Shown here one piece after another: positions 8,071 to 29,747 of a DNA stretch of 64,000 nucleotides (within the stretch, counting starts at the first letter, position 1; the number at the start of each line of letters is the position of its first letter). Source of the DNA: Octopus vulgaris (Eukaryota); the NCBI GenBank assembly GCA_951406725.2, contig OX597815.1, forward strand, positions 163,866,001-163,930,000. Direction: 5' to 3'. Under the pieces are notes generated by a model, which worked only from the letters and a program-made list of their open reading frames with translations, made no database searches and was not told where the DNA came from. The translations under genes were made by a program, and so were the position numbers.

Positions 8071-10019
8071 CACAGGAAATGCTGGATGGTTGGGGGTTCC
8101 GGAAAAAACAAAGCAATCTGATTTGCGATCTTTCAATATAATCGATAAGCAGTATGCGAAAATATGCATGTCGTTCAAGGATTCTTCATCTGAAGTTCCT
8201 GGGCCGAACACATACACACAGTCACATGCACATATGAAATACACACACACAAATATAGACACGTACAAAACATATACAGTAATGAAGTACATACGCACAT
8301 ACGCACACTCACATCTAAAGAATGCTAACCCAATTTATGAGCCCAAGTTTATGTACACATACATACATATATACATACATACTTACATACACACATACAC
8401 ACACACACATACATACATACCTACATACATACATACATACATACATACATACATACATACATACATACATACATACATACATACATACATACATAGACAC
8501 ACGCGTGCGCGGACACACATACACTAACCAATTTACATAAGCAGAAACCTCAAGAGCTGTCTTCTAAGATTGAAACACTGCTATGTGTAACGAAACTTCA
8601 ATAAATATGCTCTACATTTCAATGTTTTAATAGTAGCAAACTAGTGATCCTACAAGCCTTTCATATATATGTGTGTAGGTGTGTAAGGAAGGAGAAGGAG
8701 AGAGAGAGAGAGAGAGAGAGAGAAAAGAAAGAGTGAGTATTTACAGAACAAGAAGGAGCAAGGAAGACAGGCGGTAAAGGTGGGGAGGTCAATCTATTGT
8801 ATAAACAGTCCAAGTCCAAACTAAAGAACACAAAGAAGTGGAAATTCACCTTGTATAGTCGATTGAAATGTCTGTTCCATTTTCCTCGCCAAAATTGGCA
8901 TTGTGCCACGAGAGGAAATTATTATGCGTGAGTGTGAACGTGTGTAGGCGCATGTGTGCGTATTTGTGCGTATATGTGTTGTGCGTACTTGAGTTTGTGT
9001 ATTGCCTTAGACTAGGCTGCTTATACTGTCCGTACTTGTGTGAATAGAATAAATAAGTAGAGAGAAATTTACAACAGAGATGAAAGGACTCTCAGGAATA
9101 TCTTAAAAGAGACTAGCTCACGCTTTACCGACAATGATAAACTGATTCGAAGTCATCGTATACTGTACAAAACTACGAACTACAAGAAGAACAGGTACTA
9201 ACACATAATAACAACATTAATACAAACATAACAGTGAACATACACAAATACATATATACGTACATACATACGTACATACATACATACTCACTCACACACG
9301 CACAGAGGTTTACCTCAACTTAGTTCGTTTCGAGTTCCGTCGTCTTCGACTTCGTGTTGTTTTGTTGTCAGAAATAAATTGAAATAAAAAATACAGATCT
9401 CAAATTTAGTCGATTTTTCCGATTTTACGTCGGTCTCAGCGAACTTATTTAAAAGCAAAAAAATTTCTGAAGAGAAGAAAAAGAAAAACAAATACTTAAA
9501 TGTCAGTTTTGAAGCGAAAATTCAAATGAAATTCCTATAAAAAAAGATGTGCAATCGTGGCTGTGAGGTAAAAAGCTTGCTTCGAAACCACATTGTTTCG
9601 GGTTCAGTCCCACTCTGCGGCACCTTGGGCAAGTGTCTTATTTAGCCTTGGGCTGACCAAAGACTTGTGAGTAGATTTGGTAGACGAAATGAATGTTTGT
9701 GTGTGTGTGTGTGTGTGTGCCTGTGTGTGTTTGCTTGTGTGAGTGTGTGCGTGTATGTGTGTGTATGTATATGTATATACATGTTGTTATTTAGAAATGC
9801 GTTTAGGTTTCCCAAGAGCAGAGGAGACTCCCGTTATTTCGACAAAGCCGTGGGGAACGAAGTTCTTGGAGGTGAAAGATACTCAGACATAAAGCTTGCA
9901 GCGAAAATAATACAGGTGATCTTGCAATGCCTGTCATTGGAACAAACTATGGCAACTAGGAAAGCGACAGAAGCGTTGTACAAGCTTATGTCATTTAAAC
10001 CCATTGACACACACGTCTT

Positions 10020-10312
10020 ATTACCTGGGGCCATACTAGAGCACCCTTTTCAATCTATCAATCTAACTTACGGGACGTAAACACACCAACAACAGTTGTC
10101 AAGCGATAGTGGGGGCAAACACAGAGACAAAGATACACATACATATATACATATAAATATGACGAGCTTCTTTCAGTTTCCGTCTACCAAATCCACTCAC
10201 AACCCGAGGCTATAGCAGACCACACTTGTCCAAAGTGCCATGCAGTGGGACTGAACCCGGAATCGCGTGATTGAGAACCAAGCTTCTTACCACGCAGCCA
10301 CTCCTGTGGCTA
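10020..10312 (-). mobile_element. SINE family B, degenerate
   Basis: Contains CTTTCAGTTTCCGTCTACCAAATCCACTCAC and GTGGGACTGAACCCGG, the reverse complements of family B motifs. Confidence 0.75.
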
Positions 10313-10316
10313 TATG

Positions 10317-10388
<72 letters not shown>

Positions 10389-10673
10389 CCTACATTATGT
10401 ATACACAGAGACAAACGGATAGACAGGAAGACAGACAGACAGACACAGAGACAGAGATTTCTACAGCCAGCCAATCGGATAACTTCTACGTCATCGATCA
10501 ACCAGCGGATATGCCTACATAACATCCGCAAATGGCATTGGAAGTTGTTTAAAAAGTAACAAAAGACATACTGGATACAACAAAGTAAACGGATCTTCGT
10601 CGGTTTCTATGACCACTTCGATAAACTGAACAATTTTCTCATTTTGCTAGTAAATATAGTAGATATAGAAAAG

Positions 10674-10922
10674 AGTAAAGGTAAAGTTGCCTTCTCGTGT
10701 CAAACCGATTCATTAGTGCCGGTTTCCTGATTTCATGGCGTATAAATTCCTCACCTGGACAGGATACCGGCCTGTCGCAGGATTACTCCTTTTTGCCAGC
10801 TGAGTAGATTCGAACAACGTGAAATGAAGTGCTTTGTTGAAGAACACCACGCGCCGCCAAGTCTAGGAATCGAAACCACATTCCTCCGATCATGAGTCCA
10901 ATACCCTAACCACTAAGCCACG
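10674..10922 (-). mobile_element. tRNA-derived SINE family D
   Basis: Minus strand TGGCTTAGTGGTTAGGGT (A box), GGTTTCGATTCC (B-box-like), 3' tail ...AACTTTACCTTTAC. Confidence 0.7.
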
Positions 10923-11192
10923 TAGTAGATGTTGTAGCACGATCTCTCTCAAATGCAACTATTGTTTTCAAATAGTAGCAACAAGGGCAACGTCGACGAC
11001 AACGACCACGACAACTGCTCTCGGTCATTTTGCGCGTAGTATAATTTTAATTTACGGAGATGTACTTGCATAGCAAGTGACCTGATCTGAGATCGTGCGC
11101 TGGAACGAAAATAATTGCAGCGTGGAAGGTGTTTATAAGCCATTTAAGTAACACACAAAATTCGTTAGATTCACTTCGACATTTAAATTTAA

Positions 11193-11243
11193 TTTGTCGA
11201 AATATTTTCGTCGTTTTTTGGCCGCGAACTGTTCACTGACAAA
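11193..11243 (-). ncRNA. Candidate minimal type I hammerhead ribozyme, G3:C8 core variant
   Basis: Minus strand tttgtca-GTGAACA-gttcgcggccaaaaaacgac-GAA-AATATT-t-cgacaaa. Stem I tttgtc/gacaaa, stem II closed by G-C and T-A, palindromic stem III AATATT. One defect at the base of stem I. Confidence 0.55.
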
Positions 11244-11378
11244 ATACTGTGCTACATAATTTTAATTAAGTAGTCACAAAGATTTCGATATTAAATAAAA
11301 CAATGGTTATTTTGCATAGTGGACCTGAAAGTAAGATGTCTGATCGACGACAAAACATAAAGAAATATACGCACGCAT

Positions 11379-12931
11379 GCGCATGTGTTAGAATGTGTAT
11401 GTGTGTAAGAGAAAGAGAGAGAGAAAGGGAATGAGTTGTATAAATGCGTTTGTTGTTGAAAGGTATTATTTTAAAGTACTCTCGACCTCGTCTATACTAA
11501 ATTAGCAGTATCCGTGGAAATCCCAAGACCCGTTTTGTGGTGCTCTATCAACTATAAACAACTTCCCACTCGGTGATAATATCCTGTCATTTTCATGATA
11601 ATCCTTTAATTAATTTCTGGGAAGTCTTGTCTATTTTCTTCGGTATTGTTTTCTCTTGTAGCTTTTCTTATTATTATGGCTAATGCATAATATTCTTGCC
11701 GATCATCAACGTTTGTACTTTGCTTTCTTTTATGATCAACAACTCTTATTCTTTCCTTATTATCTTCAGCTTCGTCGTTCGTCATACAACAGCTTCTAGC
11801 TCCTATTTTGGCAATAATTTCATTCTTTTCCTTCTCAGGCAATGCTTCACATCATTCCTGATTTTCTTCTCTTCATCCCTAATTCTTATTTCTTTCTGTC
11901 TTCTTTCAATTTTTCACTGTACTTTCTCTGCCTTTCTTGAATCACTTCTCGATGTCTTATGATCGTTATTCGCCGTAACACACTAAAAAAAAAAGAAAAA
12001 GAAAAAAAGAAACTCTGCTTTGGTGATAAAATAATTCATGAACAACTTCATATTATATCGTTGGTAACATCCAATAAACACAATATCTCGTCACACATAT
12101 TTTACGAAGAAAGTTGTGAACATGGTTATCTTATAATTATTCTACTTCATCACTCCGCGCATGTGTTAGAGTGAGTATGTGTGTAAGAGAAAGAGAGAGA
12201 GAAAGGGAATGAGTTGTATAAATGCGTTTGTTGTTGAAAGGTATTATTTTAAAGTACTCTCGACCTCGTCTATACTAAATTAGCAGTATCCGTGGAAATC
12301 CCCAGACCCGTTTTGTGGTGCTCTATCAACTATAAACAACTTCCCACTCGGTGATAATATCCTGTCATTTTCATGATAATCCTTTGATTAATTTCTGGGA
12401 AGTCTTGTCTATTTTCTTCGGTATTGCTTTCTCTTGTAGCTTTTCTTATTATTATGGCTAATGCATAATATTCTTGCCGATCATCAACGTTTGTACTTTG
12501 CTTTCTTTTATGATCAACAACTCTTATTCTTTCCTTATTATCTTCAGCTTCGTCGTTCGTCATACAACCGCATCTAGCTCCTATTTTGGCAATAATTTCA
12601 TTCTTTTCCTTCTCAGGCAATGCTTCACATCATTCCTGATTTTCTTCTCTTCATCCCTAATTCTTATTTCTTTCTGTCTTCTTTCAATTTTTCACTGTAC
12701 TTTCTCTGCCTTTCTTGAATCACTTCTCGATGTCTTATGATCGTTATTCGCCGTAACACACTAAAAAAAACGAAAAGAAAAAAAGAAACTCCGCTTTGGT
12801 GATAAAATAATTCATGATCAACTTCATATTATATCGTTGGTAACATCCATAAACACAATATCTCGTCACACATATTTTACGAAGAAAGTTGTGAACATGG
12901 TTATCTTATAATTATTCTGCTTATCACTCCG
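11379..12931. repeat. Near-identical tandem duplication with 778-bp period (11379-12156, 12157-12931)
   Basis: ORFs 11696-11962 and 12474-12740 give the same translation, offset by 778. Only scattered substitutions and small indels between copies. Confidence 0.95.
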
Positions 12932-13200
12932 TCACTTAGCCCATCCGTAACGCTTCCATGAGATTAGTTTGAGCGGAAGGGAAAGAATGCGGAGTGGGGT
13001 AGAGAAATTGGAGAATGGAGGAGGGTAGGAGAGGTGGTGATGAGTGAAATATGTAATTTTTTTTAACTGTTACTTTTCCTCCGTTACTTAGCCCGTCTGT
13101 AACGCTTTCACGTGATTATTTGAAGGAAAAGGTGAAGAATGAAAGAAAAAGAGGGTAAGGTGAAGAGTGAGGGAGAAAGAGGGACAATTAAGACTATAAA
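11502..13200 (-). mobile_element. Probable decayed Helitron-derived element, partly duplicated
   Basis: Minus strand ends ...TGGGATTTCCACGGATACTGCTAAT, an imperfect hairpin plus a GATACTGCTA(A)T terminus like GATACTGCTAGT at 46534-46545. Charged E/R/K-rich ORF remnants resemble Helitron N-terminal repeats. ~152-bp internal repeats at 12927 and 13079. The 5' boundary is uncertain. Confidence 0.4.
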
Positions 13201-13590
13201 ATTCTGCATAAAGTATATAAAGTGTATACATTAAGTGCATTAAGTAATCATCGTATTTCAATTTCCTTCACTTTTCAATGATAAGCAGATGAGCGGCTAT
13301 CTTTTGATACAGGCACAACACATGCTACGCTTTCTAGATTTTTGGATGAAGTTTTCAGAAATAATCCAATAAGTTTATCCTTAATTCTGAGAAATATTCA
13401 CGAGCCTCACTAGTTGATATAAAGATAGTTGAGGAATCTCCATATCTGGTATATACCGTTACACACATTTTTTGGAGAAATTTATGAATTCATTTATTGA
13501 TACACAGTTGGTTAGAAGAATTCCATTTCCAGGTCAAAGTGTTATGCACATTTTTTGAAATAATTTAGGAACACGGTTATTAATACAGAC

Positions 13591-27385: not shown

Positions 27386-29747
27386 GCAGATCGTCGTCCA
27401 AGTAGAATATTAACTACATACATCTCCTATGTCTCGGAAAGTCTACAAAGTATATAGTCTCAATTCCGTCTTTTTATAAGCCAAAAAAGCAACAAATAAA
27501 AGTACGATGTATATTAGTGCCGAAGTAGTTTTAGATATATAAACAACAGTAAAAAAAATTGTTATTGTATAGCTCAAGTAGGCTAGCGTGATCACATTTA
27601 TGATCATAGGTACTTCAGTTTTTTACTCACATATACTGTATCCTAAAATTACATCATCAAATGTTAAGGTTATCGCTGCAATTTTCAATAGAAAATTATT
27701 ACGACGCTTCGTATCCAAGACGCTTGCTCTAAATAAAATCAGTGCAGGCTATAGTTACTGTAGAAAATCTGTATAGTTAACGTTAACGAGTGATGTAGTA
27801 GCACTGGTAACACAGTAGAACCCTGATTTATAAAAAACGTTTAATATACTTTGCAGTATATCATGGTTGCATAGCGAAATACGATGGCCCTATAGGTCTT
27901 TAATCATCAAATGTGTATGTCTGATTTTTAAGAGGACGTAATTTTATTGAGACCTTGCTACTATTTCTAGCATACGGATTGACTGCGTAATATATTTATT
28001 TTCCCTTAATTGGCTTATATAATAAAGGTAAAATAGTATGTTAATACAGTAAATGTCATGTCAGTGGGACGTATCAGTGTACCTTTTAGTGATACAAACC
28101 CACTGCGAAATAAGGTTGTTATTGTCGTTGTCTGAGTCCTAGGTCATGTACATCTCGTTTCCTTTTTATTTGGTTTTTTTTTTCTTCTTCTGAAAACTTC
28201 AACATTGAATCTTTCGGTTCTATTGATATAATATCCACACTGAGGCTATCGATCGATCCGTCATGTTTGTTCAACGCATGTTAATAAAGTAAAGTTAAAG
28301 GTTTTCTTCCTTTCCATGTTGCTATTTCAATACACCTCAAACCTTTCATTTATGCTTCAGGCTGTCTTCTCTTATTAGCAGATTCACTGAGATTTGCACA
28401 GGAACTTTCCTAACATTGTATATATGTAGTATACGAGCTATTTGTTCTTGCAATTGATATGTAGGTTTGTCCTTCACAAATGTAATCTTTTCTCAACAAA
28501 TATGCTTGTCAAAGGAGTAAGATTTACGAATGATAGATGTGATTAAACTACCTATTTTCCTCAGGACTTCCATAAATTTGTTGACTATTTCACCACTGGG
28601 CATGACATCTACGGAAATTGCATTATCGAGTATCCTATTGACATGTTACCAACTAATCTTAGACACTATATTTTTGTCTCTAATTACTGTATTTTGAATC
28701 TTGTTATGTTGTAAACACTATTATCATAACAAGACTACTGAGGACGTACAGCATGTACACATCGTTTCTTAGTATATTTATTCTCAAGTCATTTCTTGCC
28801 TCCTTAAAAACTCTTTCTATTTCTGTGTGTGTATGTGTGTGTGAGTGTGTGCGCATGTGCATGCCTGTATGTATGTATATCTACAAGTGTAAATATGTAT
28901 GTATGCGTTGAGAGTTGAATAAGTTTTTTTTCTTTCTGAATTTGAAACAAGTGTCTACTTTAAAAGATGTTGATTTAACCATCTTTAAGCACAAGTTCGT
29001 ATTTTAGAATCAAGTGTGAGTTGATCATGGGTTTTACGTTATGTGTCTTGGAGTATCGTTGAGGATTATGCGCTTTGTCCAAATTTTGAGATGCCTGTAA
29101 CAGTGAAAACGGTTTATTTTATGCTTTTGTGGGTAGTCATACCTAACTGTTTTAAGGTAAATTACAGTGTTCCCAATTCAATTGACCATGACAACGGAAT
29201 GATCTTTTTATTCTTTTTTTATTTATTTTTGACATCAAGGTGAATGTCGTCAATAAAACAGCTGCAGTTAAAATGCAAAAACGCTAGTTTTCATCATATA
29301 ATTGACCACCGAACTACGCATAAAGATATTGGAGATAGCCCATAGAATTTCCAACTTCAATAAGTGTTATTTTTCTTTCATTTGAATAGCTTGTCATTGA
29401 ATATAAAGACATGAACCTTCAGTGTGATGTTTAACTGACACAAACATATGCTCAATCATCGTTCTTATGTTATAATTACCTGAAGATATTTAATTACATT
29501 CAGACAACATTTCCCAGCGTTTATCGTTTTTCTAACTGCTATTGTTTTTCTAATTATAATAGTGACAGTGAATCTGGTTCTTCATTGTTTGCAATATGTA
29601 GGATTAAAAGCATGCATACATTCCATAAATTGTCACTTGGAATTTACCCGTTACGTATGTCACTAACAAAATACTCATAAGTTTTACCTTCTACAAATTA
29701 GGTTGTGTTATATTACTCAATATCATCAATCAAAAACATTGCACATT

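What the first reader, a model, noticed from the sequence alone, without database searches (positions are those of the whole stretch)
11041..11267. Candidate ~215-nt retrozyme carrying a G3:C8 covariant hammerhead ribozyme
Seen: the minus strand of 11193-11243 has full type I hammerhead topology (stem I tttgtc/gacaaa, a stem II, GAA, palindromic stem III AATATT), but the core reads GTGAACA instead of CTGANGA. The motif lies in a unit bounded by the direct repeat ATAATTTTAATT (11041-11052 and 11256-11267), giving a 215-bp period. Established: C3-G8 is a Watson-Crick tertiary pair in hammerheads and a G3:C8 swap restores activity. Short palindromic stem III is typical of the minimal, dimer-cleaving hammerheads of Penelope-like elements. 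Metazoan retrozymes are short non-coding hammerhead repeats that make circular RNA. Inference: this is a monomer of a non-coding retrozyme-like family that CUGANGA motif searches would miss. This copy has one defect at the base of stem I, so it may be inactive even if the family is active. The direct repeat could instead be a TSD.
Basis: partly seen in the sequence, partly recalled or inferred. Interest (0 to 1): 0.82.

Follow-up and report, generated by a model that had tools for sequence, protein, structure and literature searches.

The report
Swapped-core hammerhead in Penelope-like retrotransposon
This 205-base stretch is a decayed end-fragment of a Penelope-like jumping gene whose thousands of copies carry a predicted self-cutting RNA (hammerhead) with the two partners of a key core base pair swapped, a change my literature searches found only as a laboratory mutant; whether it cuts is untested.

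Summary
The motif is real; the retrozyme-monomer reading is not. Window 11053-11257 (minus) is the terminal pLTR-plus-tail fragment of a Neptune/Nematis-type Penelope-like element (PLE). ATAATTTTAATT is its target-site duplication (TSD). The family has thousands of dispersed copies (3,175 and 6,736 exact motif hits), variable TSDs, inverted arms and near-full-length RT+GIY-YIG copies; the unit encodes the ORF's first 30 codons. G3:C8 is family-wide (95 of 107 arms). It is a true covariation: 11 of 11 position-homologous hammerheads in related PLEs pair positions 3 and 8 (C:G 5, U:A 4, G:C 1, A:U 1), although the scan did not require it. The window copy has three helix defects and is predicted to misfold. 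Cleavage is not shown: 95 of 98 sampled copies read through the cut site, so integration uses uncut RNA. A small 166-190-bp tandem, retrozyme-like offshoot of this pLTR exists at 23 other places, with mostly perfect hammerheads. Natural U3:A8 cores are published; I found no natural G3:C8, but could not read Lünse 2017. Verdict: new variant of a known kind.

The parts
11053..11257 (-). 205-bp terminal fragment (pLTR + tail) of a Neptune/Nematis-type Penelope-like element, family A
   Evidence: Boundaries fixed by alignment of 30 copies; 86% identical to both pLTRs of the near-full-length element in L418
11041..11052 (.). 12-bp target-site duplication, copy abutting the element's 3' end
   Evidence: other copies carry their own 6-14-bp duplications
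11256..11267 (.). 12-bp target-site duplication, copy at the element's 5' end (2-bp microhomology with the element)
11193..11243 (-). Type I minimal hammerhead motif; decayed in this copy (A2.1.C1.1, U10.1.C11.1, C10.5.A11.5)
11229..11236 (-). Core G3-U4-G5-A6-A7-C8-A9 plus the extra G between positions 9 and 10.1
   Evidence: G3:C8 in 95 of 107 family arms; extra nucleotide is a PLE min-HHR feature (PMC4209133); 3-8 pair Watson-Crick in 11 of 11 related families
11210..11228 (-). Stem II (5 bp in the family, 3 of 5 here) and 9-nt loop II
   Evidence: subfamily variation is concentrated in loop II
11199..11209 (-). G12-A13-A14, palindromic stem III AAUAUU (11206-11201), U17 (11200); predicted cut between 11200 and 11199
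   Evidence: cleavage untested
11053..11143 (-). First 30 codons of the PLE ORF (ATG at 11143, MAYKHLPRC...)
   Evidence: in L418/L390 the same frame runs on into the RT-EN ORF; 25 of 30 hits to the next ORF segment directly follow the unit's 3' end
11053..11110 (-). About 58-nt 'tail' between the two preferred 3' ends of family copies (inferred: two reverse-transcription start sites)
   Evidence: 3' ends cluster at unit positions 143-153 and 199-205; 54 of 64 inverted pairs join one long and one short arm

Best explanation
The stretch is a retrotransposed terminal fragment (pLTR plus tail) of a Penelope-like element, and its family carries a conserved hammerhead fold with a natural G3:C8 core pair that is predicted to cut slowly, as a dimer or with help from the element's protein. 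Shown: the full element is a ~4.3-kb unit with an RT and C-terminal GIY-YIG ORF; the hammerhead lies about 1 kb after the stop codon and about 55 nt before the next ATG; insertions have variable TSDs, favour AT-rich and (TA)n sites, and often have an inverted arm. Inferred, by analogy with Poseidon of Anolis (PMC11167929): transcription starts just upstream of the hammerhead, the protein nicks the target and starts reverse transcription inside the RNA at one of two sites about 30 and 90 nt into the ORF. Starting at the site near the RNA's 5' end would give the very abundant 147- or 205-nt solo copies such as this one; starting at the repeated site in a read-through transcript would give long copies. 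The template is uncut RNA (shown by read-through of the cut site). Cleavage, if it happens, would act at another step, such as trimming tandem transcripts or down-regulating the mRNA. The window copy has decayed after insertion and is most likely inactive.
For: Copy number: 3,175 exact hits of a 22-mer across the core and 6,736 of a 30-mer 3' of the cut site, controls 0. TSDs: 17 of 30 loci have a locus-specific 6-14-bp duplication, 8 sit in (TA)n, 5 unclear (my tally). Autonomous partner: L163 has 1,000 stop-free codons with DKS, YVDD, CxxxCxxC, C-x4-C and YIGET motifs and Pfam GIY-YIG at E 1.8e-5. L418 shows inverted arm / partial upstream copy / pLTR-ORF / pLTR. Hammerhead: G3:C8 in 95 of 107 arms not picked by the core pattern; 0 of 13 core positions and 6 of 10 loop positions vary in more than 10% of arms; the core is also visible in an older subfamily. 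The sister family B (55% aa identity; sister at SH-aLRT 100 in a quick tree; 3,302 exact motif hits) has C3:G8 with compensatory changes in stems I, II and III. Across 11 families the 3-8 pair is Watson-Crick in 11 of 11; covariation score 0.848, 0 of 500 shuffles as high, slid controls 0.04-0.16. U4, G5, A6, the extra G, G10.1, C11.1, G12, A13, A14 and A15.1 are invariant. The C3G/G8C double mutant partly restores cleavage in a PLE hammerhead (PMC11167929).
Against: No cleavage is shown. Only 1 of 98 sampled arms begins at the cut site and 95 run at least 9 nt past it. G3:C8 rescue is only partial in the laboratory. The predicted fold of an intact copy pairs G3 with U17, an inactive register. 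Sister family B and L204 have C at the conserved A9, so the core is not strictly held. 12 of 21 relatives gave no motif in the stretch held (3 of the 12 have under 250 bases of it), and two related loci gave an antisense C3.U8 look-alike outside that stretch. Stem II and III pairing was required by my scanner, so only the 3-8 pair and stem I are unselected evidence; two of 11 rows are out of register in stem I. The A3:U8 case (L217) has only one stem I pair. The tree is the quick one, without bootstrap. The transcription start and the two RT start sites are inferred from copy ends only.
Confidence: 0.82

Rival explanations
1. The hammerhead fold is kept as a structural or protein-binding element of the PLE RNA and does not cut at a useful rate in this family.
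For: 95 of 98 arms read through the cut site; in PAc, hammerhead mutants do not affect insertion and no RNA-seq reads end at the cut site (PMC11167929); metazoan min-HHRs cut poorly in vitro (PMC4209133); C9 in family B and L204; Naiads prosper without canonical hammerheads (PMC8557442).
Against: All catalytic-core letters except 3, 7, 8 and 9 are invariant over families at 28-55% aa identity, and 3-8 always pairs. That pair belongs to the catalytic conformation (established knowledge; PMC3088659 section 8). The palindromic stem III covaries as the dimer model needs.
Confidence: 0.3
2. The 215-bp unit is the monomer of a non-coding tandem retrozyme that makes circular RNA.
For: Size and type I hammerhead fit; a tandem derivative of the same pLTR does exist.
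Against: The direct repeat is locus-specific; 0 exact head-to-tail junctions of the 205-nt unit; the unit codes for the ORF start and continues into the PLE body; the real tandem unit is 166-190 bp and has a junction sequence absent from the window copy.
Confidence: 0.04
3. The short copies are an independent non-autonomous SINE-like family with its own source genes, rather than short products of the autonomous element's RNA.
For: 42 of 98 arms start within 5 nt of one position; short copies greatly outnumber body copies (6,736 hits for the terminal 30-mer against 200 first-look candidates for an ORF segment); one loop II type dominates the short copies closest to the window and another the ORF-linked copies.
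Against: Both loop II types occur with the upstream body attached; internal RT initiation near the RNA 5' end explains short copies without extra source genes (PMC11167929).
Confidence: 0.12
4. The G3...C8 motif is a chance look-alike in a repeat.
For: Rfam gives no hammerhead hit in the window stretch.
Against: Rfam also misses the canonical C3:G8 motifs of L205 and L207; position-homologous motifs in 10 related families; shuffle and antisense controls.
Confidence: 0.02

Closest known systems
Minimal type I hammerheads (min-HHR) in pLTRs of metazoan Penelope-like elements (Cervera & De la Pena 2014, PMC4209133)
   Same: Type I fold, extra nucleotide between 9 and 10.1, G10.1-C11.1, short palindromic stem III, mostly dispersed single or inverted copies from truncated PLEs; natural 3-8 covariation (U3:A8 in Schistosoma PLEs).
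   Different: The pair is G3:C8. The text and supplement file 2 passages I saw list only C3:G8, U3:A8 and one U3.G8.
Neptune/Nematis clades of endonuclease-bearing PLEs (Craig et al. 2021, PMC8557442)
   Same: [quoted passage not shown]
   Different: Tail of about 58 nt rather than 30-40; DKS rather than DKG; no reference elements were on hand to choose between Neptune and Nematis.
Poseidon of Anolis carolinensis, PAc (Frangieh et al. 2024, PMC11167929)
   Same: Hammerhead at the ORF start; two RT start sites inside the ORF that bound the tail; uncut RNA as template; C3G/G8C partly active.
   Different: In PAc G3:C8 is an engineered mutant; here it is the wild type. Different PLE clade; ATG lies downstream of the hammerhead, not in stem II.
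Animal non-LTR retrozymes (Cervera & De la Pena 2020, PMC7229834; Li, Clavereau & Pollet 2026, bioRxiv 10.64898/2026.07.22.740005)
   Same: The 166-190-bp tandem offshoot at 23 places has a type I hammerhead in every unit, low GC, and a pLTR origin as Li et al. propose.
   Different: The window copy is a solo, TSD-flanked PLE end. For the offshoot no RNA, cleavage or circle is shown, and its arrays mostly begin and end at PLE ends, which points to linear templates.

Membership tests
Penelope-like element (EN+) | Single ORF with RT and C-terminal GIY-YIG endonuclease | tested here: met
   L163: 1,000 stop-free codons, YVDD, YIGET, Pfam PF01541 E 1.8e-5 above cut-off. Pfam RVT_1 did not hit family A; it hit sister family B below cut-off.
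Penelope-like element (EN+) | Pseudo-LTRs from partial tandem insertion, inverted 5'-truncated arm, tail at one end | tested here: met
   L418 and L421 direct pLTR-ORF-pLTR; 54 of 64 inverted pairs long/short, 1 long/long, 0 short/short, 9 with an unclassed arm
Penelope-like element (EN+) | Variable TSD, AT-rich or (TA)n targets | tested here: met
   17 of 30 with locus-specific TSD, 8 of 30 in (TA)n
Penelope-like element (EN+) | Retained spliceosomal intron in the 5' UTR (some PLEs) | tested here: inconclusive
   A branch-point/acceptor-like sequence precedes the unit in 422 exact hits; no GT..AG joint ending there among the joints shown for four runs' contigs
Neptune or Nematis clade | CX2-5CxxC linker between RT and EN | tested here: met
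   CQSNCAVC at residue 871 of the L163 frame
Neptune or Nematis clade | RT phylogeny with named reference elements | not testable with these tools
   No Repbase references available; the tree holds only unnamed relatives
Type I minimal hammerhead (PLE min-HHR) | Conserved U4 G5 A6, G12 A13 A14, A15.1-U16.1, H17, G10.1-C11.1, extra nucleotide after 9 | tested here: met
   Met for the family; G10.1-C11.1 not met in the window copy
Type I minimal hammerhead (PLE min-HHR) | Watson-Crick pair between positions 3 and 8 | tested here: met
   G3:C8 in 95 of 107 arms; 11 of 11 families pair, four pair types
Type I minimal hammerhead (PLE min-HHR) | Literal C3 and G8 (CUGANGA) | tested here: not met
   Core is GUGAACA
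Type I minimal hammerhead (PLE min-HHR) | Self-cleavage 3' of N17 | not testable with these tools
   Needs biochemistry; genomic copies show no pile-up at the cut site
Non-LTR retrozyme (window unit) | Tandem repeats with a hammerhead in at least two consecutive units | tested here: not met
   Solo copy in the window; 0 exact 205-nt head-to-tail junctions
Non-LTR retrozyme (window unit) | Non-coding, not part of an autonomous element | tested here: not met
   Holds the first 30 codons of the PLE ORF
Non-LTR retrozyme (tandem offshoot elsewhere) | Tandem repeats with a hammerhead in consecutive units, at several loci | tested here: met
   84 exact junctions at 23 places on C2, C15, C22, C28, up to 29 in one array; 76 of 77 units G3:C8, 54 of 77 perfect
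Non-LTR retrozyme (tandem offshoot elsewhere) | Expressed as linear and circular monomer RNA | not testable with these tools
   No run on record as RNA and no raw reads were offered

The most novel reading that the evidence does not exclude
This PLE clade has tried all four Watson-Crick pairs at hammerhead positions 3-8, and family A is a natural, catalytically active G3:C8 hammerhead; its 166-190-nt tandem offshoot is a newborn retrozyme that uses this core to cut itself as a dimer and make circles, so the birth of a retrozyme from a pLTR can be traced junction by junction in one genome.
Probability: 0.3. Interest if true: 0.72.

Novelty: new variant of a known kind. Interest (0 to 1): 0.5.

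Why it matters
Whether PLE hammerheads cut in vivo, and why, is open (PMC8557442, PMC11167929). Repeated compensatory swaps at 3-8, a pair of the catalytic conformation, argue that this conformation is under selection even though integration uses uncut RNA. A wild-type G3:C8 core in thousands of copies gives a natural test case for a mutant known from rescue experiments. Two very abundant families in this one genome (G3:C8, and C3:G8 with C9) escape CUGANGA and, as far as tested, Rfam searches, so hammerhead counts in animals are likely too low. The tandem offshoot offers a ready dimer substrate and a young example for the proposed pLTR origin of animal retrozymes. The window copy itself is an ordinary dead fragment.

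Tried and rejected
Rfam scans: no hammerhead hit in window 9000-13500 or in six loci that include canonical C3:G8 motifs, so uninformative. 215-bp tandem array: rejected. Genomic trace of cleavage: no excess of copies starting at the cut site, 1 of 98. Cap signature at the 5' end: the G before AG is mostly explained by the TSD or the inverted arm, so not claimed. Sequencing runs: no RNA holder listed; only contigs. Four runs were laid on L163:6500-8330; they cover unit and body, but their kind is a guess, and the joints shown include no GT..AG joint; nothing is concluded on expression, splicing or circles. The L121 3.4-kb tandem looked like a full-length PLE but has no PLE ORF. First cross-family alignment failed through wrong coordinates and was redone. 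One of four folds (L018) was of the antisense strand by mistake and is ignored. The careful tree did not finish; the quick tree was used. A decayed PLE endonuclease fragment at window 28197-28714 matched only itself in its 3' part. Earlier findings of this scan: none on this sequence. Literature searches for a natural G3:C8 core found none; forms written with a colon could not be searched, most subscription papers are not held, Lünse et al. 2017 (PMC5785218) was not held, supplement file 1 of PMC4209133 was not searched, and bioRxiv supplements are closed.

Full report
Observation. The core is G3-U4-G5-A6-A7-C8-A9, followed by one extra G. In the family register this copy has three broken pairs (A2.1.C1.1, U10.1.C11.1, C10.5.A11.5). 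Its predicted fold is no better than shuffles (z -0.64) and buries G12-A14, while an intact copy (L163) folds stems I and II (z -2.98).

The unit is a dispersed repeat with TSDs. A genome search gave 2,720 first-look candidates, 40 scored, at 89-94% identity on many contigs. A 22-mer across the core has 3,175 exact hits and a 30-mer 3' of the cut site 6,736; reversed controls gave 0. Thirty copies align over about 205 bp with unrelated flanks. By my tally, 17 of 30 have their own 6-14-bp duplication, 8 lie in (TA)n and 5 are unclear. ATAATTTTAATT is therefore the TSD of this insertion. An exact pattern for head-to-tail 205-nt units with a 0-25-base gap found nothing.

It is the end of a Penelope-like element. 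422 exact hits extend upstream into a common body. Following it led to L163, with 1,000 stop-free codons holding DKS, YVDD, a CxxxCxxC linker and YIGET and a Pfam GIY-YIG hit above cut-off. The hammerhead lies about 1 kb after the stop. The unit's 3' end continues into the ORF in 25 of 30 hits to the next segment; the ATG is at window 11143. L418 shows the textbook layout: inverted truncated arm, partial upstream copy, pLTR-ORF, pLTR; its ORF has a stop and two frameshifts. Among 190 distinct arms, 3' ends cluster at unit positions 143-153 and 199-205 (44 duplicate or secondarily amplified arms of 234 were dropped). 54 of 64 inverted pairs join one long and one short arm. This matches the PLE tail at one end (PMC8557442, passages) and the two internal RT start sites of Poseidon (PMC11167929, parts 1-2 of 4). 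The linker motif places it with Neptune or Nematis; I could not choose between them. The host is inferred to be an octopus, because a neighbouring PLE family is 92% identical to a protein that its source names Octopus vulgaris.

G3:C8 is the family state. Among 107 arms that cover the motif and were not picked by the core pattern, 95 have G3:C8, 10 a single change and 2 a gap. Variation above 10% falls on 0 of 13 core, 3 of 26 stem, 6 of 10 loop and 9 of 85 outside positions. The three stem positions are a CpG site, a change that keeps a U.G pair, and U1.1 to C (11 of 107, including the window). An older subfamily shows the same core.

G3:C8 is a real covariation. Sister family B (55% aa identity; sister in a quick tree, SH-aLRT 100) has a homologous motif with C3:G8, C9, and compensatory changes in stems I, II and III. 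A metagenome scan with a 40-protein alignment returned 78 loci; 21 had the ORF's end. A scan that left positions 3, 8 and 9 free found a motif 97-397 nt after the ORF in 9 of 21: four C3:G8, four U3:A8, one A3:U8. Shuffles gave 0.097 hits per round, 34% of them Watson-Crick, and the antisense strand none. On the 11-row alignment the 3-8 pair forms in 11 of 11 with four types; covariation score 0.848 against 0.213 in shuffles (0 of 500) and at most 0.156 in slid controls. Caveats: stems II and III were required by the scanner; rows are related; the A3:U8 row has a weak stem I; outside the 3' stretches the scan also gave a few non-pairing look-alikes.

Cleavage is not shown. Of 98 arms picked just 3' of the cut site (the first 100 listed on C1; 9 are one secondarily amplified copy), 95 run at least 9 nt past it and 1 starts exactly there; 42 start within 5 nt of the unit's 5' end. 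Integration therefore copies uncut RNA, as in PAc, where hammerhead mutants do not affect insertion and cleavage needs the protein. Sequencing runs gave no usable RNA evidence. One inference: a G3:C8 mutant is reported to work better with G17 than with C17 (PMC3884650, passage, 'data not shown'); family A has U17 where its C3 sister has C17, which would avoid a G3-C17 trap. This rests on one case.

A retrozyme-like offshoot exists elsewhere. L393 showed a tandem of the short arm with (TA)n and a fixed junction. That junction has 84 exact hits, which I group into 23 places on four contigs. All 23 were examined: up to 29 junctions per array, 76 of 77 units G3:C8, 54 of 77 perfect, 9 of 23 places with a non-microsatellite TSD. 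Arrays mostly begin and end at normal PLE ends, so they moved as linear PLE-type templates; circles are neither shown nor excluded. This fits the pLTR origin of retrozymes proposed by Li et al. (bioRxiv 10.64898/2026.07.22.740005; part 1 of 5, passages and section 14) and their two-unit criterion. The window copy lacks the junction and is solo.

Comparison with what is known. PLE min-HHRs with an extra nucleotide after position 9, palindromic stem III and a natural U3:A8 variant are described (PMC4209133, parts 1-2 of 4 and passages of supplement file 2). Natural U3:A8 is also in PMC3088659 (passages and section 8). G3:C8 appears as a partial laboratory rescue (PMC11167929; PMC8495972, passage). 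Retrozyme features are from PMC7229834 (passages) and the dimer model from PMC6765202 (passages). Four searches found no natural G3:C8, and one no description of this octopus family. Lünse et al. 2017, the largest survey of PLE hammerhead variants (recalled; not held), may contain it, as may supplements I could not see.

Verdict. Observation partly confirmed; interpretation partly supported. The window copy is an ordinary decayed PLE end. The family's natural G3:C8 hammerhead, backed by covariation across 11 families, is a new variant of a known kind. Interest 0.5; most novel reading (active G3:C8 core and a newborn circle-making retrozyme) probability 0.3, interest 0.72 if true.

Noticed in passing
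G000:C2:17908240-17912916 (L458) and 22 other places, 19 of the 23 on C28: Tandem 166-190-bp offshoot of the family-A pLTR (short arm + (TA)n + a fixed 10-nt junction); arrays of 1-29 junctions, 9 of 23 with a non-microsatellite TSD, many with inverted arms; 54 of 77 units have a perfect hammerhead.
   Followed up: partly
L425 (G000:C26:25543603-25546654): A second, independent tandem array of short arms with a different junction.
   Followed up: no
L125:8300-10000 minus; L173-L202: Sister PLE family B, 92% identical to a protein named Octopus vulgaris by its source, has a C3:G8 hammerhead with C instead of A at position 9 as the family state (3,302 exact hits).
   Followed up: partly
L217:2810-2839 (metagenome contig Ga0115011_10042781): Possible A3:U8 hammerhead core 3' of a related PLE ORF; stem I is only one pair.
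   Followed up: no
L101, L162, L099, L122: Other hammerhead-like motifs with U3:A8 cores and palindromic stem III in G000 repeats; L037 holds a canonical C3:G8 min-HHR pair in inverted orientation.
   Followed up: no
L077, L037, L110: A third, B-like hammerhead family in older copies.
   Followed up: no
L038, L040, L058, L059, L061, L062, L064, L075, L081, L084-L087, L089: 14 of 60 loci share one inverted family-A insertion with near-identical flanks: it was amplified secondarily inside another, larger repeat.
   Followed up: no
G000:C28: 8 of the 30 best ORF-segment hits and 19 of 23 tandem-offshoot places lie on this 29-Mb contig, about 1% of the assembly; unexplained.
   Followed up: no
Upstream of the unit in L060, L123, L163 and others: A branch-point/acceptor-like sequence directly precedes the sharp 5' end of short copies (422 exact hits); it may be an intron end, a transcription start, or both.
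   Followed up: partly
window 28197-28714, minus: Decayed fragment of another PLE endonuclease region, 32-43% identical to family A.
   Followed up: partly
L121 (G000:C2:171238000-171247999): A 3.4-kb tandem duplication that carries a family-A end but no PLE ORF.
   Followed up: no
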